Assembly: GCA_964580075.1 (NCBI GenBank)
Contig: CAZOJL010000005.1
Location: 8,013 to 60,869 of the forward strand
Source: an uncultured Akkermansia sp.
GTDB lineage: Bacteria > Verrucomicrobiota > Kiritimatiellia > RFP12 > JAAYNR01
Length of the DNA stretch: 52,857 bases
Direction of reading: 5' to 3'
Shown piece by piece: positions 11,311-44,096 of this stretch. The notes beneath the pieces are model-generated. The model worked only from the letters and a program-made list of their open reading frames with translations. It was not told where the DNA came from and did no database searches. Every line of letters begins with the position of its first letter. The first letter of the stretch is position 1. Made by a program: the position numbers and the translations under genes.

Positions 11311-11396
11311 GGTGGGGTACCGAAGTGGTCAACCGGGGCAGACTGTAAATCTGCTGGCTTATGCCTTCCTAGGTTCGAATCCTAGCCCCACCACCA
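11311..11396 (+). tRNA. tRNA-Tyr(GTA)
   Basis: Acceptor stem GGTGGGG/CCCCACC plus ACCA; anticodon arm GCAGA-CTGTAAA-TCTGC; long variable arm; T loop GGTTCGAATCC. Confidence 0.97.
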
Positions 11397-11444: not shown

Positions 11445-11653
11445 ACACCCCTTTTCGGGTGTTCCTAACTGTCCCGACGTGTTCTATTGAATACCTACCG
11501 AGGTACCCCGAGTTAAGCCAAGTGAATGCAGGGGCGTCATCGGGTAGAGTATCCAACCCCGCCCACCCGGTCAAGCCGCCGAAGCCGGGTGCCAGGTGCC
11601 GGGTGCGATCGCGGCGGTCGGGTCGCCCTCGCCGGGTGTCGGGCGGTCGGGTC

Positions 11654-11734
11654 GCCCTTTCGCTTCCCTTCGGCTTCTCCTACATCTGGCGTGGGGACGT
11701 GCACTCCACACGTTACGTGCCATGCCCGGCACAC
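11654..11734 (-). mobile_element. Group IIC intron 5' remnant (~80 nt of domain I)
   Basis: Minus strand begins GTGTGCCGGGCATGGCACGTAACGTGTGG...GAAGCCGAAGGGAAGCGAAAGGGC, matching the GUGYG start and 5' sequence of bacterial class C introns as recalled. Confidence 0.7.
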
Positions 11735-11925
11735 ACGTGTCAGTCACTTTGCTCCCGGCGCACGCCTGGCGGAAGGGCAGAAAATGGCTCGCGCTTGCCC
11801 AATCGTCCACCGTTCTCGTCGCCCGCTATCGTCAACCGACTCTTCCCCTTCCGGTGGACGATAACGGACGACGACTGCGGATCACGATTTCCTGCGGTCT
11901 TCCCTTTCTCTCTCCACCCGCCAAC
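11654..11925 (-). repeat. Module tail, copy B (~270 bp, homologous to 14175-14445)
   Basis: Direct repeat whose homology stops exactly at AAC (GTT on the minus strand) at 11923-11925. Confidence 0.9.
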
Positions 11926-11942
11926 GAATAGCGTTTATGTCA
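11921..11942 (-). other. Hybrid attC/attI-like recombination site ending cassette 1
   Basis: Minus strand reads TGACATAAACGCTATTCGTTGG. GACATAA complements the cassette start TTATGTC, and AAACGCTATTCGTT is identical to the end of the 85-bp attI-like repeats. Confidence 0.7.
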
Positions 11943-12956
11943 ATGTCTTGTGAGAGGCTTACTTGTTATCAGGCCGATACCTCTGCCCTTATCGCCCACC
12001 GCATTGTAGTACAGATAAAAGGTTTCATTCACGGCATTCCAAACCAGCGAGATCTTGTGGGCGAATTGTTTATCCAGCCCTGACGGATTACCTCCGGCTT
12101 GGTAGAGCGGTTCGGGGTCGACAGTCCAGTGGTACAGGTCTTGGGAGAACGCCACCATGATATGCGCTCCACCCCGGCCTACACCAAAATAGAACATGAC
12201 CCAATGATCGCCATCGCGGAAGACCTTGCCGTCCGAGACAAACTTCTCATCATAGCCCCCCGGGGTGACACGAATAACCGGGTTGTCATGATGGCGCTGC
12301 CAATCCAGCAGGTTGCCGGATACGGCCAACCCCATCTGCTCTATCCACTCGGGCATCTGCTTGGCATTATAGAAGTTGAAATACTTTCCTTCATATTCCA
12401 CAAGCCAGGGCTGGTAAATGCAGCCCTTTTCCCAATGGCCGACATCCCGTTCGTGTACCGAGAGAATGTACTGTCTCTTCGCACGGTGCCAGGTCAGCCC
12501 GTTCTCGCTACAGGCAACACCCTCATAGCCGGGATCGATTTCATAGCCGCCCTGTTTCGCATAGCACCCATATAGAGTCCAGAACTTGCCATCCTTCTGC
12601 TTCAGAACACGTGGCGCCTTGATATCGTATGATTCATAGAGGTAGGCGCCTATGACGCGACCACCAAAATCGAATTCACCCGCATGGCCGAACCCCATGG
12701 CCAGACGCATGTGGGTCCAGTTTACCAGGTCATCGCTTTTTGCGACAAACGACTGGTAGCCCTGTCCGTTGAAGCCGATAAAGGACATATACCAGTTCTC
12801 ATCCCCGGGTATCTGGTAGATCGTGGGGACATCTGTCGCGTTAACGTCATCATGTCCTTCGATTTCCGGTTTCGCAGGGATCACGTGATCGGGATGGTAA
12901 TACCAGCTCCGATACGGGGATGACCATTCTCTGATCTTGTCGCTGTCAATAGTCAC
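11940..12956 (-). CDS. Gene cassette 1: five-bladed beta-propeller glycoside hydrolase-like protein (GH43/GH130-like)
   Basis: Repeated blades (WYMSF..SDDLVNW, GVACSENGLTW, LAVSGNLLDW, AFSQDLYHW). GTG start at 12956 with AAGGAG RBS. Visibly lower GC than host genes. Confidence 0.7.
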   Translation of the reverse strand: MTIDSDKIREWSSPYRSWYYHPDHVIPAKPEIEGHDDVNATDVPTIYQIPGDENWYMSFIGFNGQGYQSFVAKSDDLVNWTHMRLAMGFGHAGEFDFGGRVIGAYLYESYDIKAPRVLKQKDGKFWTLYGCYAKQGGYEIDPGYEGVACSENGLTWHRAKRQYILSVHERDVGHWEKGCIYQPWLVEYEGKYFNFYNAKQMPEWIEQMGLAVSGNLLDWQRHHDNPVIRVTPGGYDEKFVSDGKVFRDGDHWVMFYFGVGRGGAHIMVAFSQDLYHWTVDPEPLYQAGGNPSGLDKQFAHKISLVWNAVNETFYLYYNAVGDKGRGIGLITSKPLTRH

Positions 12957-12982
12957 AGACTTCTCCTTCGATGAAAAATGAG

Positions 12983-13055
12983 ACATAAGGCAAAAAACGC
13001 TGCTCAAACCAGAGCGTAGCGGCGGTTTGAGCTAGTGTAAATTTTGTTGTTCTGT
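12983..13055 (-). other. attC site (degenerate) of cassette 2
   Basis: Inverse core TCACAGAAC is perfectly complementary to the cassette start GTTCTGTGA (13582-13590). Central stem GCTCAAACC/GGTTTGAGC. Core reads CTTATGT instead of GTTATGT. Confidence 0.75.
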
Positions 13056-13571
13056 GATCTCTTGTCTTCTCATCACCTTGGGCAGAAAGACGGCCAGCAG
13101 ACTACCCACAGTGAAGAAGATCAATCCAAATCCGGGCAGGAAGAATGATTGTCCCTTTATGCCGGGTTCAAGCAGGCATTCTTCTGGGTTGTCGAGCGCA
13201 TAGTGCACGGTCACGCTTTTATCTTTAGGGTAACTATTCACAACACGTCGTGCATGCGAAGGGTTGCCGGACCCATAATCTCCGTACGCGATACGATTGC
13301 CGCTGAAAGTCGTGTTGTTGACGCTGAAATCATACATGACTTCAGCGTGATATGTACCACTGCCCTCATCGCTATCATGATACTCTACCGAAGATGCCAC
13401 GACCTTGCCTTGAGTAGTGGGCCAATCCACACTGGCCTTAGCTCTGATGAGACTACGAATGCCGAAGAAGGCCACGCTGGCACCCACCACAACAAAGATG
13501 AGCGGAAATATGCGCGAGAAGAAGAATCGCATCCCAGGTGACATTTGCTTTGACGATGATGATATTCTCAT
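13032..13571 (-). CDS. Gene cassette 2: DUF3592-like membrane protein
   Basis: Pattern TM - WPTTQGKV - Y.F.V...F.G - V.V.Y..DNP..C.L - TM. ATG lies 19 nt after the GTT core; the stop falls inside the attC. Confidence 0.75.
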   Translation of the reverse strand: MRISSSSKQMSPGMRFFFSRIFPLIFVVVGASVAFFGIRSLIRAKASVDWPTTQGKVVASSVEYHDSDEGSGTYHAEVMYDFSVNNTTFSGNRIAYGDYGSGNPSHARRVVNSYPKDKSVTVHYALDNPEECLLEPGIKGQSFFLPGFGLIFFTVGSLLAVFLPKVMRRQEITEQQNLH

Positions 13572-13587
13572 TGTTATTCTTTCACAG

Positions 13588-13674
13588 AACGAATAGCGTT
13601 TTATCCCTCGCGCGGCAAGTATATGACGGTTGCTGTTTGCAAACAAGCGTGTTCTTGCCGCATGTGGGATAAAA
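13588..13674 (-). promoter_or_regulatory. attI-like site with embedded Pc-like promoter, copy B
   Basis: 85-bp repeat of 15117-15200 ending AAAACGCTATTC-GTT. TTGTTT-N17-TATACT points into the cassettes and is flanked by an 18/21 inverted repeat. Confidence 0.65.
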
Positions 13675-13845
13675 TGGTGTTGAACGGAGCCGGGGGTCCG
13701 GATGACGGGCTATGGGGTTTGAATCCCCTTCTGGTTATGGCGCGCCTGAACGAAGGGCGCCGGCTTGGCTTGGACTTGGGAATGCTCACAAGGCGGTCCC
13801 GATTGGCGCCGATTGGGCCGTGAGGTAAACGGAAGGCCCGTCTCA

Positions 13846-13982
13846 AATGGCTCTAAGTTAAGGGGCTATTGCCATCTTAATCGTAATCCTAATCTTGATC
13901 TTAATCGACTGGTGGAGACCGGATTACGATTACGATTAGGATTAGGATTATGATCGGAAGCATCGCTTAATTTAGCGCCATT
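13846..13982. mobile_element. 137-bp MITE with IS4-like ends, copy 1
   Basis: TIR AATGGCTCTAAGTTAAG / CTTAATTTAGCGCCATT. Flanking direct repeat AGGCCCGTCTC (13834-13844, 13984-13994). Internal (AATCNT)n/(GATTAN)n arms. Confidence 0.85.
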
Positions 13983-14009
13983 CAGGCCCGTCTCTTGTCG
14001 GACTGCGAG

Positions 14010-14255
14010 TGGAGAATGGAGGGCTTCGCGGTCACAGCCTGTCGCGTCGAAGCCATCGGCGAAGGCGGATGCCCGCTCGCCCCGCGTGTACCACACCGTG
14101 TATCCGGTTCTTGTTCATCGCCCCGTGCTTTCGCGTTGGGCTTCCTCCCCACCCCGCCTCACGACGACGCAGTTGCCCTTTCGCTTCCCTTCGGCTTCTC
14201 TTTCACCTGGCGCGGGGACTTGCACCCCACACGTTACGTGCCATGCCCGGCACAC
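14010..14255 (-). mobile_element. Group IIC intron 5' remnant (~245 nt of domain I; no RT ORF or domain V/VI seen)
   Basis: GTGTGCCGGGCATGGCACGTAACGTGTGGGGTGCAAGTCCCC...GGGCAACTGCGTCGTCGTGAGGCGGGGTGGGGAGGAAGCCC...GAACCGGATAC...GGGCGAGCGGGCA...CCGCGAAGCCC. Confidence 0.8.
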
Positions 14256-14445
14256 ACGTGTCAGTCACTTTGCGCCCGGCGCACGCCTGGCGGAAGGGAA
14301 GAACATGGCTCGCGCTTGCCCCACCGTCCATCGTAGTCGTCGCCGTCGTCGTCAACCGATGCTTCCGTTTCGCGGTGTACGACACCGGCGACGACTACGG
14401 ATCACGATTTCCTCCGGTCTTCCCTTTCTCTCTCCACCCGCCAAC
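14175..14445 (-). repeat. Module tail, copy A
   Basis: Homologous to 11654-11925. Contains a perfect 14-bp IR CGTAGTCGTCGCCG/CGGCGACGACTACG. Begins GTTGGCGG on the minus strand. Confidence 0.9.
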
Positions 14446-14503
14446 ATTCGGCCTCATGCTGAGCCGCGCTTTGCGGCGATAGCATGGAGGCCGTGGTTAT
14501 GAC
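14439..14503 (-). other. attC site of cassette 3 (~64 bp)
   Basis: GTCATAAC-cacggcctccatgct-atcgccgcaaagcgcggctc-agcatgaggccgaat-GTTGGCG. Stem has one extrahelical base. AGTCATAAC matches the complement of the cassette start GTTAGGACT at 8/9. Confidence 0.85.
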
Positions 14504-14526
14504 TTCCTATGATCTCCGTTACACAT

Positions 14527-15090
14527 CTAGCTTTCAAAATAGTGCTCAAACCTGTAGATACCCGTCGCTGGGTCATACGTGATGCTCATGTGAGCTACAC
14601 CAAAACAGAATATGCCCACGGTGTTCGCCTCCTTGCGGTACTGGTAGTCCTGGAAGTCCTTCTGCTTGGATGCGTTGAGACTCCACACCTGATCTAGCCA
14701 GTCGGCCGGGGATCGTGTGCCTGGCAACCGGAACTCAACAAAGAAATCCCCGGCCCAGTCGCCTTTATCGACCTTTGTCACCTCCGCTTCGGGCGGTAGT
14801 CTGATCAGGCGCCAGCCCTCTTCAACCGGGACAGGCCCACCGCTCTTTGCAAGCAGAGCCTTGCCCCCAAGAGTGCCAAGTCCAATGATCGCGACTGAGA
14901 GCGCAACGCCAAGTGAGAGCATTATCAGCGTCTTCTTGCCGCCGGTGAGTCTTCGCTCCTTTGGCGTTTTGCGGATAACGTAGACGAAAGGGATCAGAGC
15001 AAACGCAACCAGCACGGAGATGACAAAACTGCCAAAGACAGCAGCACACACGAACATCATGAAGAGAATCGCTATTCCCATACCCGTCAT
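14527..15090 (-). CDS. Gene cassette 3: hypothetical membrane protein (187 aa)
   Basis: Two hydrophobic N-terminal segments then a soluble domain. GGAG RBS. Bounded by a GTT core and an attC; lower GC. Confidence 0.7.
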   Translation of the reverse strand: MTGMGIAILFMMFVCAAVFGSFVISVLVAFALIPFVYVIRKTPKERRLTGGKKTLIMLSLGVALSVAIIGLGTLGGKALLAKSGGPVPVEEGWRLIRLPPEAEVTKVDKGDWAGDFFVEFRLPGTRSPADWLDQVWSLNASKQKDFQDYQYRKEANTVGIFCFGVAHMSITYDPATGIYRFEHYFES

Positions 15091-15116
15091 TCTCCGGCCC
15101 TTTCTTTCTCAGTCCT

Positions 15117-15200
15117 AACGAATAGCGTTTTTCCCTCGTGCGGTAAATATATGACGGTTTCTGTTTGCAAACAAGCGTGTTCTTGCCTCATGTGGGATAA
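15117..15200 (-). promoter_or_regulatory. attI-like site with embedded Pc-like promoter, copy A
   Basis: Differs from 13588-13672 by 5 substitutions and 1 indel. TTGTTT-N17-TATATT; ends AAAAACGCTATTC-GTTAGGAC. Confidence 0.65.
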
Positions 15201-15279
15201 TGCGAGGGCATTGAGAGAGCCATGAGGGAGCGAGTAAGCAGGTGGAGTAAGTGTGCCGTATAAGATAGGGTTTAACGGT

Positions 15280-15416
15280 GTTGGACGTTGGGCGTTGGAC
15301 GTTGGGCGTTTTCCACCGTTCTCTGACTCCTGAGTGCGGTGTCGCGAAGCCCTTCGTTCCGGCGGCAGCGTCTTGGAGTGCGGCGGCAAGCGGTATTCCG
15401 CGCGACACCGCTTTTC
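15280..15416. repeat. Heptamer tandem (TTGGRCG)n plus REP-like half-site TTGGAGTGCGGCGGCAAGCG...GCGCGACACCGCTTTT
   Basis: Read directly. Related fragments at ~41459-41490 (inverted) and ~41712-41748. Confidence 0.5.
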
Positions 15417-15684
15417 CCGGCTTCGCCACGAATGCAGACCCCTCGCAACGGCGTCGAGAGCCAGAATAGGCAAAAGTGCCTGAATAGTAGATGTGTTTGC
15501 CCCGGCATGAGCCGGGAGCCGTCGACGAGTCGGATCGGCGAGGGTTGGGGGATTAAGATTACGATTGGTTGCCCCAACAACAAAATCAGCGGCGCGGTAT
15601 TCCGCGCACGCTGATTTTGTCTGGTTTGCACACGTCTGTGCTCATGTCAACTTCGGTCTTCTCTCGTGTCCCCGCTGACGTTCT

Positions 15685-16812
15685 TTACGAGTCGATTCCC
15701 TCATTGAAATAGACGAACAAGCCGTCTTTTCCGGGGGCGATGAAGTCGAGGCGGCCGGTGCCGCGCAGATCGGCGAGCGCAAAGTGGATGCCACACCCCT
15801 TGCCGGTGCCAATCGGTCCGTAATCAATTACCTGCTTGGCGAAGCCCTCCCCGGTCCACTTGAAGTAGTAGATTCCCAGATCATCCCACTCCCCCGCCTC
15901 ATGGCCGTTATGCGCGCGATGCCGTTTGCCGGTCACCAGTTCCGGTTTGCCGTCGCCGTCCAGGTCCGCCCAGATCAGGTCATGATACTGCGCATTGAAT
16001 GGATCGATCGGATGGTGCGCCCAGGCTCCGTCGGCCAGCCGCTTGCTCCACCAGAGACCGTATCCATGCGCATTTCCGGTGACGATCTCGTTCTTCCCGT
16101 CGCCATCCACATCCACCACGAGCATGGGGACACTGGAAGCCCCCCCCCACGGCGGTTTCGGGAAATCGGGATGCCACTTCCATGTCCCCTTCTCGGGATC
16201 GGCGGGAGCTTCAAGCCAGCCGGTGCAAAGCACGATGTCCATGCGCCCGTTGCCCGCAATATCGCCGCAGCCCAGGCCATGCCCCTGCCCGCCCTCCGCG
16301 AACGTATGAACCGTGACCTTGCGGAACGCGCCGGCCCCCTTCCCGTTCTTGTCTGTGATCAGCTTGTAGTAGGAAACGTCCTTGTTCGGCGGGGTGTTGG
16401 GGAGGATCTCGATGATCCCGTCGCCGTCAATATCCCACCCCCGCGTGGTTTCGACGTTTCCTGTGTTCTCGGCCACGATATGCTCGGGCCAATGCTTCCC
16501 CGTCTCACCGGGATTTTCGCGCCAGCGCAGGTTGTTGCCCCACCAGCCGCCGGTCACATAGTCCAGCCGCCCGTTTCCGTTGATATCGAGCGCGATGGTC
16601 GAGAAGTCGTCGTAATACTCCCCGCAACGCGGAATCACGCCGATTTCATGCTTCTTGCGGAAGTCGGGTCCCTCGTACCAGTACCCGCCGCACACGATGT
16701 CCGGTTTGCCGTCGCCGTTGACGTCGAACACGCCGGCCGATTCAAACGTTTCATCCGATATCCACACTTTTCTCCACTTGAGAGGCATGGTGATGCTCCT
16801 TTGTTCAGACAT
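15685..16812 (-). CDS. FG-GAP/VCBS repeat beta-propeller protein
   Basis: Repeated DxNGDGxxD motifs (DVNGDGKPD, DINGNGRLD, DIDGDGIIE, DVDGDGKNE, DLDGDGKPE). ATG overlaps the upstream stop (TAATG). Confidence 0.85.
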   Translation of the reverse strand: MSEQRSITMPLKWRKVWISDETFESAGVFDVNGDGKPDIVCGGYWYEGPDFRKKHEIGVIPRCGEYYDDFSTIALDINGNGRLDYVTGGWWGNNLRWRENPGETGKHWPEHIVAENTGNVETTRGWDIDGDGIIEILPNTPPNKDVSYYKLITDKNGKGAGAFRKVTVHTFAEGGQGHGLGCGDIAGNGRMDIVLCTGWLEAPADPEKGTWKWHPDFPKPPWGGASSVPMLVVDVDGDGKNEIVTGNAHGYGLWWSKRLADGAWAHHPIDPFNAQYHDLIWADLDGDGKPELVTGKRHRAHNGHEAGEWDDLGIYYFKWTGEGFAKQVIDYGPIGTGKGCGIHFALADLRGTGRLDFIAPGKDGLFVYFNEGIDS

Positions 16813-43967: not shown

Positions 43968-44096
43968 TAAGTTAAGCGATGCTTCCGATCATAATCCTAA
44001 TCGTAATCCTAATCGTAATCCGTTCTCCACCAGTCGATTAAGATCAAGATTAGGATTACGATTAAGATGGCAATAGCCCCTTAACTTAGCGCCATT
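43968..44096. mobile_element. IS4-like-end MITE, copy 3 (inverted relative to copy 1; first 8 nt of one TIR missing)
   Basis: Near-identical to the reverse complement of 13846-13974; intact end CTTAACTTAGCGCCATT. Confidence 0.85.

What the first reader, a model, noticed from the sequence alone, without database searches (positions are those of the whole stretch)
11654..15200. Tandem integrase-less mini-integron modules: one attI-like scaffold loaded with different cassettes
Seen on the minus strand: module A = 85-bp repeat (15117-15200), GTT, cassette 3 with attC, GTTGGCGG tail (14175-14445). Module B = the same 85-bp repeat (13588-13672), GTT, cassette 2 with attC, cassette 1, then the same tail (11654-11925). 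Homology of both repeats stops exactly at the GTT triplet, the known IntI crossover point. Each cassette start complements its own inverse core (9/9, 8/9, 7/7), the hallmark of insertion of a circular cassette. No intI is present in the 52-kb window. Inference: an 'empty' ~355-bp unit (promoter + attI-like site + tail) was duplicated and each copy captured cassettes using an integrase in trans. That would be a non-autonomous, multi-copy cassette docking and expression platform rather than an ordinary decayed CALIN array.
Basis: partly seen in the sequence, partly recalled or inferred. Interest (0 to 1): 0.9.

Follow-up and report, generated by a model that had tools for sequence, protein, structure and literature searches.

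The report
Integron cassette array with intron debris
This is a stretch of integron gene cassettes lying away from its integrase in a lake bacterium; the two "scaffold" repeats are a genus-wide repeat at cassette junctions and a decayed cassette fused to the start of a tiny group II intron.

Summary
Both repeat pairs are real and end at GTT as described. The "mini-integron scaffold" reading holds only in part.

- **The 270-bp tail is composite.** It is a 190-nt ORF-less cassette remnant (T1) plus the first 84 nt of a 345-nt ORF-less class-C-like group II intron. The intron sits inside the GTT core (GT|T), on the same strand as the cassettes. Both window copies are 3'-truncated.
- **The 85-bp repeat (R85) is multi-copy across the genus.** It occurs 4-27 times per genome. 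Four copies lie inside an intI-linked cassette array in a congener. Canonical cassettes join it exactly at G|TT.
- **An integron integrase exists elsewhere.** It lies on another contig, and a second copy of the attI region sits beside a truncated intI.
- **Cassettes 3 and 2 are genuine.** Their starts complement their own inverse cores (8/9 and 9/9), and cassette 2 recurs behind a canonical attC in another family. "Cassette 1" has no attC.

Best reading: a cassette array lacking a nearby integrase (CALIN), loaded in trans and littered with a MITE, intron fragments and other repeats. Whether R85 acts as a folded attC or as a double-stranded docking and promoter site is unresolved.

The parts
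15201..15566 (-). Mosaic of three other interspersed repeat families (about 15566-15327, 15415-15351 and 15275-15201). It lies between the FG-GAP gene (16884-15685) and R85A.
   Evidence: dozens of 80-97% identical copies, many at contig ends.
15117..15200 (-). R85 copy A. It ends ...AAAACGCTATTCGTT, with the GTT at 15119-15117. Its hairpin is degenerate.
   Evidence: Bottom-strand fold z = -1.33.
14445..15118 (-). Cassette 3. It holds an orphan 187-aa membrane-like ORF (15090-14527) and a canonical attC: R'' 14504-14496, L'' 14492-14481, L' 14460-14450, R' GTT 14445-14443.
   Evidence: The start complements its own R'' at 8/9. The attC bottom strand folds at -20.1 kcal/mol, z = -4.05, with one extrahelical base. 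The ORF was found in 1 of 121 genomes of the order and has no Pfam hit.
14256..14445 (-). T1 copy A, an ORF-less cassette remnant. It comprises GTTGGCGG, a purine-rich leader, a hairpin with hexamer-repeat arms, a decayed attC region, and ends ...CACGT.
   Evidence: T1 copies start sharply at GTTGGCG after unrelated sequence in this genome and in G014, G027 and G030. In contig C83 the same kind of leader and arms enclose a PF05635 gene (73.9 bits). That gene's attC has R'' CGCCAAC, the complement of GTTGGCG.
14011..14255 (-). Group II intron fragment A. It keeps the first 245 nt of the 345-nt ORF-less intron (starts GTGTGCC) and lacks the D5/D6-like end.
   Evidence: RF02001, 47.2 bits, E = 1.7e-7. 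242/247 identical to the full copy L211:135-479.
13673..14001 (-). The unit that precedes R85 in many copies (starts CCGACAAGAGACGGGCC). Here it is interrupted by a 142-nt MITE (13984-13843) with an 8-bp target duplication GACGGGCC (13992-13985 and 13842-13835), and by a further insert of about 105 nt.
   Evidence: The MITE family has dozens of copies.
13588..13672 (-). R85 copy B, with GTT at 13590-13588. GTTCAAC lies 6 nt upstream of the hairpin.
   Evidence: Bottom-strand fold -23.2 kcal/mol, z = -3.77.
12996..13589 (-). Cassette 2. It holds a DUF3592 ORF (13571-13032) and an attC-like end: R'' 13057-13049, L'' 13032-13024, L' 13010-13002, GTT 12998-12996. The spacers are atypical (16 nt against 3 nt) and a T-run follows, so it also looks like a terminator.
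   Evidence: PF12158, 57.9 bits. Start against R'' is 9/9. Homologous cassettes share the same start and R'' in other families. Fold z = -2.8.
11926..12997 (-). "Cassette 1": a GH32/43/130-like beta-propeller ORF (12956 or 13007 to 11940). It has no attC. Its stop codon is followed by 14 nt identical to the 3' end of R85 (AAACGCTATTCGTT).
   Evidence: A paralogue with 71.6% nucleotide identity sits in an ordinary operon on C184.
11735..11925 (-). T1 copy B, 169/192 identical to copy A.
11651..11734 (-). Group II intron fragment B. It keeps the first 84 nt only, 77/84 identical to copy A.
11311..11393 (+). tRNA gene. Homology to sister genomes resumes below about 11580, so the tRNA side is the array's outer edge.
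   Evidence: 57.7 bits.

Best explanation
Window 11581-15696 (minus strand) is a strain-specific cluster of integron cassettes with no integrase nearby. That makes it a CALIN. The host is a Lentisphaerales-like MAG from lake water, and its integron integrase lies on another contig.

**Order along the minus strand.** R85A | cassette 3 | T1A | truncated intron | pre-R85 unit with a MITE | R85B | cassette 2 | GH-like gene without an attC | T1B | truncated intron.

**Cassettes (shown).** Cassettes 3 and 2 are canonical cassettes joined at G|TT. That the integrase inserted them in trans is inferred.

**R85 (role partly inferred).** R85 is the last 85 nt of a sharply bounded unit of about 190 nt, present 4-27 times per genome in this genus. 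It always ends at a G|TT cassette junction just before the next ribosome-binding site and ORF. It is most simply read as this lineage's homogeneous, attC-like junction repeat: GTTCAAC, then two 9-bp stems, then GTT. It has non-canonical details and possibly an outward-facing promoter.

**T1 (shown in part).** T1 is not part of any attI. It is the leader plus hairpin arms of a cassette family that elsewhere encodes a 23S-rRNA-IVS-type four-helix protein. Here the ORF is lost.

**Intron (shown).** The last 84 nt of the tail are the 5' end of a 345-nt ORF-less class-C-like group II intron. Its copies lie after hairpins at CGT|T, one base inside the T1 cassette. An integrase could therefore move the intron and T1 together as one cassette (inferred).

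**History (inferred).** The R85...T1-intron segment was duplicated, and the cassettes between the repeats were then exchanged.
For: **The tail is composite**
- Its positions 1-186 and 187-274 hit different sets of genomic places.
- All 7 intron 5' ends in the genome start CGT|GTGTGCCGGGCATGG, each 4-21 nt after a different GC-rich hairpin.
- RF02001 matches directly downstream of tail A (47.2 bits). It also matches in 5 of the 9 metagenome loci that hold the 42-nt intron start.
- Those loci show the whole 345-nt element, always followed by TGGCGAATGGAG..., which is T1.
- The minimum-energy fold gives a D5-like hairpin (10-bp lower stem, 2-nt 3' bulge, CGC triad position) and a D6-like hairpin with a bulged A.

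**An integrase is available in trans**
- TIGR02249 scores 370.5 bits (cut-off 265) on contig C125.
- The attI region recurs at 96% identity on C172 beside a truncated intI.

**R85 belongs to cassette arrays**
- In same-genus genome G003, intI (363 bits) lies on the minus strand. A plus-strand array follows, with canonical attCs and four R85 copies.
- Copies at E <= 1e-8: 11, 5, 4, 15 and 27 in the five genomes of the genus.

**R85's GTT is a crossover point**
- The DUF3592 cassette starts (G/A)TTCTGTGA in 4 of the 5 other genomes (GTTCGGTGA in the fifth), each after unrelated sequence.
- In G062 it follows a canonical attC hairpin and keeps the R'' TCACAGAAC.
- For 11 of 34 R85 copies the 9 nt after R85 complement an AAC-anchored site downstream at 8/9 or better. 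The mismatched control gives 12.7%. Eight of the 11 are clear canonical attCs, in G000, G002, G003 and G004.

**Other support**
- Foreign origin: the array has 54.9% GC against 62.3% for the window. ORF A was found in 1 of 121 genomes. Close DUF3592 homologues occur only in other families.
- Sister genomes share the flanks only up to about 11580 and from 15697 onward.
Against: **R85 is not a textbook attC**
- Units that end in R85 lack the own-start/R'' signature. No own R'' with a good stem was found for any of the 4 such units in G003's array.
- Its hairpin shows no compensatory change: 86.1% of cells are paired against 86.0% in shuffles, and 205 of 500 shuffles score as high.
- The internal loop is symmetric, with no obvious extrahelical bases.
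- Spacers are 4-6 nt on the 5' side against 8-10 nt on the 3' side.
- Several copies lack the 5' arm yet keep the last 40-60 nt at 90-98% identity.
- R85A barely folds (z = -1.33).
- Some copies sit before large ORFs (865 aa on C62), one of them in a divergent intergenic region.

**Other weaknesses**
- No attC covariance model could be run.
- The intron has no RF00029 match.
- No intron-encoded protein was found in the assembly, so how it moves is unknown.
- The genome is a 92%-complete MAG in 287 contigs that break at these repeats.
Confidence: 0.65

Rival explanations
1. R85 would be a dedicated double-stranded docking and expression site, attI-like or attG-like, carrying a promoter. It would have been copied to many loci, and an integrase acting in trans would load cassettes at its G|TT. 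T1 would simply be the older cassette pushed downstream.
For: - Canonical cassettes sit directly after R85 in 8 clear cases across 4 genomes.
- In both window modules the order is R85 | unrelated cassette | T1. This is what entry of a new cassette at an attI-like position would give.
- On C83, R85 abuts an intact T1-type cassette.
- R85 lacks the own-R'' signature and shows no covariation.
- Its 3' 40-60 nt, including the GTT, are the best conserved part, and copies without the hairpin persist.
- An ATG with a Shine-Dalgarno-like motif and an ORF of 100 aa or more follows within 45 nt in 15 of 36 copies, against 3.1% at random positions.
- Insertion outside att sites at GWT, with expression from nearby promoters, has been shown experimentally (Loot et al. 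preprint; abstract and sections 27 and 33 read).
Against: - R85 is never next to intI.
- It lies inside a normal array in G003.
- It has no similarity to the real attI regions.
- Most copies form a strong AAC...GTT-flanked hairpin like an attC.
- The consensus promoter scan did not flag it: 3 sites were found in the region against 2.8 expected, and none lies in R85.
- No conserved right half of the site follows the inserted cassettes.
- No transcription start data exist.
Confidence: 0.25
2. R85 and T1 would be ordinary interspersed intergenic repeats, or a shared promoter and leader, with no link to integron recombination. The GTT boundaries would be coincidence.
For: - The genome's intergenic regions are mosaics of many repeat families.
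- R85 also precedes large, non-cassette-like genes.
- The palindrome TGTTTGCAAACA occurs exactly only inside R85 (5 of 5 exact hits). That would suit an operator site.
Against: - The boundary of R85 homology and the boundary of cassette homology coincide to the base at G|TT.
- The own-R'' signature is enriched after R85 (11 of 34 against 12.7%).
- Four copies lie in the intI-linked array.
Confidence: 0.07
3. The duplication would be an artefact of MAG assembly across repeats.
For: - Contigs in this MAG break at these repeats.
- Short-read contigs from public runs also break inside T1, the intron and the MITE.
Against: - The copies have diverged (79/85 and 169/192).
- Contigs from two runs bridge R85B-cassette 2-cassette 1-T1B and T1A-attC3-ORF A-R85A without differences. 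These runs may not be independent of the source sample.
- The T1A to R85B interval (14416 to 13641) is not bridged by any listed contig.
Confidence: 0.03

Closest known systems
CALIN (cluster of attC sites lacking an integron-integrase; Cury et al. 2016, PMC4889954, search listing and abstract only) and SALIN (Loot et al. preprint, section 27 read)
   Same: - Co-oriented cassettes with attC sites.
- No intI on the contig, with an integrase elsewhere in the genome.
- Cassette ORFs that are orphans or patchily distributed, with low GC.
   Different: - Two of the junctions are formed by a homogeneous repeat of 85-190 nt with non-canonical attC features.
- One "cassette" has no attC.
- The array also holds a MITE and intron fragments.
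Homogeneous attC repeats of sedentary chromosomal integrons, such as the Vibrio VCRs (recalled, from no call)
   Same: - A lineage-specific repeat of about 100 nt with imperfect dyad symmetry.
- It ends at GTT, recurs in the intI-linked array, and lies just before the next ORF.
   Different: - R85 is mixed with diverse canonical attCs.
- It lacks the own-start complementarity.
- It is scattered over at least 10 loci per genome.
- It often survives as a 3' half only.
attG sites and promoter-proximal cassette insertion (Loot et al., bioRxiv 10.1101/2022.09.11.507474; abstract and sections 27 and 33 read) and delta-attI-type cassettes (PMC12901181, abstract only)
   Same: - Cassettes joined at a GWT/GTT site that is neither a standard attC nor the integron's attI.
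- Expression would depend on a nearby promoter.
   Different: - attG sites are ordinary genomic sequences. R85 is a conserved, multi-copy element.
- No similarity to an attI was found, so a delta-attI origin is unsupported.
Group IIC-attC introns (PMC3001079 and PMC7923331, passages read), and the single Enterobacter cloacae class C intron in an attC top strand cited in PMC7923331
   Same: - A class-C-like ribozyme inserted after an attC-type hairpin.
- It sits inside the conserved GTT (GT/T).
- It occurs within cassette arrays and CALINs.
   Different: - Here the intron is in the top strand at R', co-oriented with the cassettes. Known IIC-attC introns use the bottom strand at R'' (TTGT/T) and lie in the opposite orientation.
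- It is only 345 nt, with no ORF.
- It is always followed by the same T1 cassette.
- All copies assembled in this genome are truncated or internally deleted.

Membership tests
Complete integron | An intI gene next to attI and the cassette array | tested here: not met
   The only TIGR02249 match above cut-off is on contig C125. There is none on the window's contig C5.
CALIN | Two or more attC sites with no integrase nearby | tested here: met
   attC3 and attC2 were recognised by hand from R''/R', L''/L' and own-start complementarity. There is no intI on the contig. The formal IntegronFinder call was not available.
attC site (attC3, 14504-14443) | R'' RYYYAAC and R' GTT; an imperfect L''/L' hairpin with an extrahelical base; R'' complementary to the cassette's own start | tested here: met
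   R'' is AGTCATAAC. The stem pairs GGCCTC(C)ATGCT with AGCATGAGGCC. Fold z = -4.05 with one bulged base. Own-start match is 8/9.
attC site (attC2, 13057-12996) | The same features as for attC3 | tested here: inconclusive
   The R'' match is 9/9 and is conserved in a homologous cassette. The stem is 9 bp and z = -2.8. However, the spacers are 16 nt against 3 nt, and a T-run makes it look like a terminator too.
attC site (R85) | R''/R' boxes flanking an imperfect hairpin | tested here: inconclusive
   GTTCAAC, two 9-bp stems and GTT are present in most of the 29 aligned copies. R85B folds at z = -3.77 but R85A at z = -1.33. Spacers are uneven, the internal loop is symmetric, and there is no covariation.
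attC site (R85) | R'' complementary to the start of the cassette it terminates | tested here: not met
   No own R'' with a good stem was found for any of the 4 R85-terminated units in the G003 array. The 3 canonical cassettes recovered by the same walk each scored 8/9.
attC site (R85) | Lies at cassette 3' ends inside an intI-linked array | tested here: met
   Four co-oriented copies lie 3.2-6.3 kb from the intI start in G003:C43.
attI site (R85) | Directly adjoins intI, with one site per integron | tested here: not met
   The intI-proximal regions on C125 and C172 and in G003 differ from R85. R85 matched only in the G003 array and in G004 arrays that lack intI, never in an intI-adjacent region of the loci compared.
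attI site (R85) | Crossover at G|TT, with new cassettes entering directly after it | tested here: met
attI or attG site (R85) | Recombined as double-stranded DNA | not testable with these tools
   This needs strand-specific recombination assays.
Group II intron, class C | 5' GUGYG, D1-D4 ribozyme core, and insertion a few nt after a hairpin | tested here: met
   GTGTG start. RF02001 scores 47-51 bits against a gathering score of 32. Seven copies lie 4-21 nt after hairpins.
Group II intron, class C | Domain V and domain VI | tested here: inconclusive
   D5-like and D6-like hairpins appear in the minimum-energy fold of L211:135-479. RF00029 matches neither that locus at E <= 10 nor the genome.
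Group II intron, class C | Intron-encoded reverse transcriptase/maturase | tested here: not met
   The element is 345 nt and ORF-less. There is no GIIM match in the genome. One unrelated-looking RVT_1 match lies on C49. The assembly is incomplete.
Group IIC-attC intron lineage | Inserted in the attC bottom strand at R'' (TTGT/T), opposite to cassette transcription | tested here: not met
   The intron is on the same strand as the ORFs, at R' (CGT/T). The definition comes from passages in PMC7923331 and PMC3001079.

The most novel reading that the evidence does not exclude
R85 would be a new kind of integron partner site: a conserved, promoter-bearing, multi-copy docking element that is neither a cassette's own attC nor the integron's attI. 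It would be dispersed to 4-27 loci per genome in a Lentisphaerales genus, and a single integrase acting in trans would load canonical cassettes at it. Alongside it, a 345-nt ORF-less group IIC intron would ride inside a cassette, one base past the crossover point, so that the integrase rather than a reverse transcriptase spreads it.
Probability: 0.22. Interest if true: 0.8.

Novelty: new variant of a known kind. Interest (0 to 1): 0.45.

Why it matters
- **If R85 is only this lineage's attC-type repeat,** the locus is an ordinary decayed CALIN in a little-studied phylum. It is useful mainly as an annotation of cassettes, a MITE and intron debris.
- **The R85 features merit a bench test.** R85 has a precise G|TT junction with canonical cassettes. 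It lacks the usual attC signature. Its 3' half is preferentially conserved just upstream of start codons. A site that both receives cassettes and expresses them away from the integron would bear on how silent cassettes in large arrays, CALINs and SALINs come to be used.
- **The intron is of separate interest.** It is very small and ORF-less, sits in the attC top strand inside the GTT, and is linked to one cassette. It adds to the one top-strand case reported, and it bears on proposals that class C introns take part in cassette formation.

Tried and rejected
- **attC covariance model.** I could not seed one. A minimum-energy finder and a stem-score finder each recovered only 1-2 of the attCs visible by eye in G003's array, so no model was built. 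No IntegronFinder-like test was run.
- **LexA-like operator.** The R85 palindrome occurs nowhere else exactly, so there is no sign of a regulon.
- **R85 as the intron's 3' end.** Rejected. It has no D5/D6-like fold and no RF00029 match. The true intron 3' end was found elsewhere.
- **IS1111-attC-like targeting of R85.** A multi-copy element end (17 copies, nearly all at contig ends) is inserted in R85 on C17 and C175, but at different points and mostly in unrelated contexts. Rejected.
- **Empty site in sister genomes.** Not found. The two flanks lie on different contigs there.
- **RNA evidence.** All four runs are held as contigs, which cannot show starts or strand.
  - RNA-library contigs lie on the GH-like gene, and one bridges attC2 (12804-13174).
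  - No RNA contig covered ORF A or the 5' half of the DUF3592 ORF.
  - Given depths of 0-4 and possible DNA carry-over, I draw nothing from this about an R85 promoter.
- **GH-like paralogue on C184.** It lies in an ordinary operon. This does not explain how "cassette 1" arose.
- **Supplementary files** of the cited papers were not seen. They may hold attC and intron target tables that bear on the comparison.

Full report
**1. What the sequence shows**

- R85 lies at 15200-15117 and 13672-13588, 79/85 identical.
- The tail lies at 14445-14172 and 11925-11651, 89% identical.
- R85 homology stops at ...AAAACGCTATTCGTT. Tail homology starts at GTTGGCGG.
- The window's contig has no integron integrase.
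- DNA contigs from two public lake-water runs bridge 11896-13641 and 14416-15244 without differences. These runs may include the sample the MAG came from.

**2. The tail is two things**

In the genome its first 186 nt and its last 88 nt hit different places. Rfam places a group II intron D1-D4 match (RF02001, 47.2 bits) directly after tail A.

Seven places in the genome start with the same CGT|GTGTGCCGGGCATGG. Each lies 4-21 nt after a different GC-rich hairpin, and each breaks off at a different point.

Nine metagenome stretches hold the 42-nt intron start. Five of them give RF02001 at gathering score. They show the whole element:
- It is 345 nt long, from GTGTG to CCCGAT, and has no ORF.
- In the minimum-energy fold its 3' end forms a D5-like hairpin (lower stem, 2-nt 3' bulge, CGC at the triad position) and a D6-like hairpin with a bulged A.
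- RF00029 does not match it.

In all three contexts the intron is followed by TGGCGAATGGAG..., which is T1. The intron therefore sits inside the GTT of GTTGGCG: ...CGT | intron | TGGCG. That is one base past the integrase crossover, on the same strand as the ORFs.

Published IIC-attC introns instead use the attC bottom strand at R'' (TTGT/T), opposite to the cassettes. One E. cloacae class C intron in a top strand is on record (passages in PMC3001079 and PMC7923331).

In the window, intron copy A keeps 245 nt (14255-14011) and copy B keeps 84 nt (11734-11651). The assembly has no GIIM match, no RF00029 match and one RVT_1 match on C49.

**3. What T1 is**

T1 copies begin sharply at GTTGGCG after unrelated sequence. 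This holds here and in three other families of the order.

On contig C83, R85 is followed by a T1-like leader and hexamer-repeat arms. These enclose a PF05635 (23S rRNA IVS protein) gene, scoring 73.9 bits. An attC follows whose R'' CGCCAAC is the exact complement of GTTGGCG, and then the intron.

T1 in the window has the leader and the arms but no ORF, and its attC region does not fold (z = +1.14). I read T1 as a decayed cassette of that family.

**4. Cassettes**

- **Cassette 3 (15118-14445).** It has an orphan 187-aa ORF, found in 1 of 121 genomes of the order. Its attC is textbook: z = -4.05, one extrahelical base, own-start match 8/9.
- **Cassette 2 (13589-12996).** It encodes a DUF3592 protein. 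Close homologues (56-85% identity) occur only in five other families. Four of the five start (G/A)TTCTGTGA and the fifth starts GTTCGGTGA, each after unrelated sequence. In G062 the cassette follows a canonical attC hairpin and ends in a canonical attC with the same R''.
- **"Cassette 1".** This is a GH32/43/130-like gene with no attC. Its stop codon is followed by 14 nt of the R85 3' end and then T1B.
- **Composition.** The array has 54.9% GC against 62.3% for the window.
- **Synteny.** Sister genomes share the flanks only below about 11580 and above 15697.

**5. R85**

*Distribution and context*
- The genome has 11 exact ...CGCTATTCGTT ends.
- The five genomes of the genus hold 11, 5, 4, 15 and 27 copies at E <= 1e-8. 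Weaker copies occur in other families.
- R85 is the end of a unit of about 190 nt with a sharp left edge at CCCGACAAG. In the window this unit is split by a MITE with an 8-bp target duplication.
- In G003, intI is followed by a plus-strand array with canonical attCs and four R85 copies.

*Evidence that its GTT is a crossover point*
- For 11 of 34 copies the 9 nt after R85 complement an AAC-anchored site downstream at 8/9 or better. The control gives 12.7%.
- Eight of the 11 are clear canonical attCs, in four genomes.

*Evidence that it is not a standard attC*
- Units that end in R85 lack the own-start signature (0 of 4).
- The hairpin shows no covariation.
- Several copies keep only the 3' 40-60 nt.
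- R85A barely folds.

*Other tests*
- R85 resembles no intI-adjacent region in the loci compared.
- An ATG with a Shine-Dalgarno-like motif and an ORF of 100 aa or more follows within 45 nt in 15 of 36 copies, against 3.1% at random positions.
- The sigma-70 consensus scan does not flag R85. By eye, TTGTTT, a 17-nt spacer and TA(T/C)ACT is the best candidate promoter.

**6. The integrase**

A full intI (370.5 bits) lies on C125. Its attI region carries repeated GTCTGGCCGTTATGCACCGC, and a multi-copy element cuts it 316 bp from the gene. A second copy of the attI region with a truncated intI lies on C172. The nearest named IntI relatives are from Lentisphaerales MAGs.

**7. Verdict**

The locus is a CALIN-type cassette array loaded in trans. 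Its repeated "scaffold" is a lineage-wide junction repeat plus a decayed cassette fused to intron debris.

Whether R85 works as a folded attC or as a double-stranded docking and promoter site could not be settled with these tools. That question is the part worth a bench test.

Noticed in passing
window 13984-13843; also window 43968-44096 (contig C5:51980-52108) and many contigs: A MITE family of about 142 nt with imperfect terminal inverted repeats and an 8-bp target duplication (GACGGGCC here). Its core is a hairpin whose arms are built of hexamer repeats. Dozens of copies occur in this genome and in the genus.
   Followed up: partly
G000 contig C83:10356-10841 (L174:938-1423, minus strand): A 23S_rRNA_IVP (PF05635) four-helix-bundle gene lies in the loop of a giant hairpin whose arms are hexamer repeats (GGGGTC/GGTATC). 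Many ORF-less hairpins with other hexamers are scattered through the genome, including inside T1.
   Followed up: partly
G000 contig C172:6607-6970 against C125:10301-10664: A second, 96% identical copy of the attI region carries only the first part of intI, next to an unrelated gene on the opposite strand. It is a truncated integron platform.
   Followed up: partly
G000 C125:10665 and 16 other places, nearly all at contig ends: A sharp-edged end of a multi-copy element (starts CTGCGATTCAGACAGTGG). It interrupts the integron directly after attI and also two R85 copies (on C17 and C175). It is probably an unassembled insertion sequence.
   Followed up: partly
window 15566-15201: Three further interspersed repeat families, one of them palindromic (15415-15351), each with tens of copies. 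Intergenic DNA in this genus is a mosaic of short repeats.
   Followed up: no
G000 contig C49:1042-1641: The only reverse transcriptase domain in the assembly (RVT_1, 80 bits), with no GIIM domain found in the genome. Its type (retron, DGR or intron-like) was not determined.
   Followed up: no
G000 contig C33:10109-10229: An R85 copy in which a 20-nt piece (CTCGTCATACACTTGCCGCA) is tandemly repeated four times.
   Followed up: no
window 15630-15572: A strong palindromic hairpin followed by a T-run, just after the FG-GAP gene stop. It is probably that gene's terminator. My attC heuristic picked it up on both strands.
   Followed up: no
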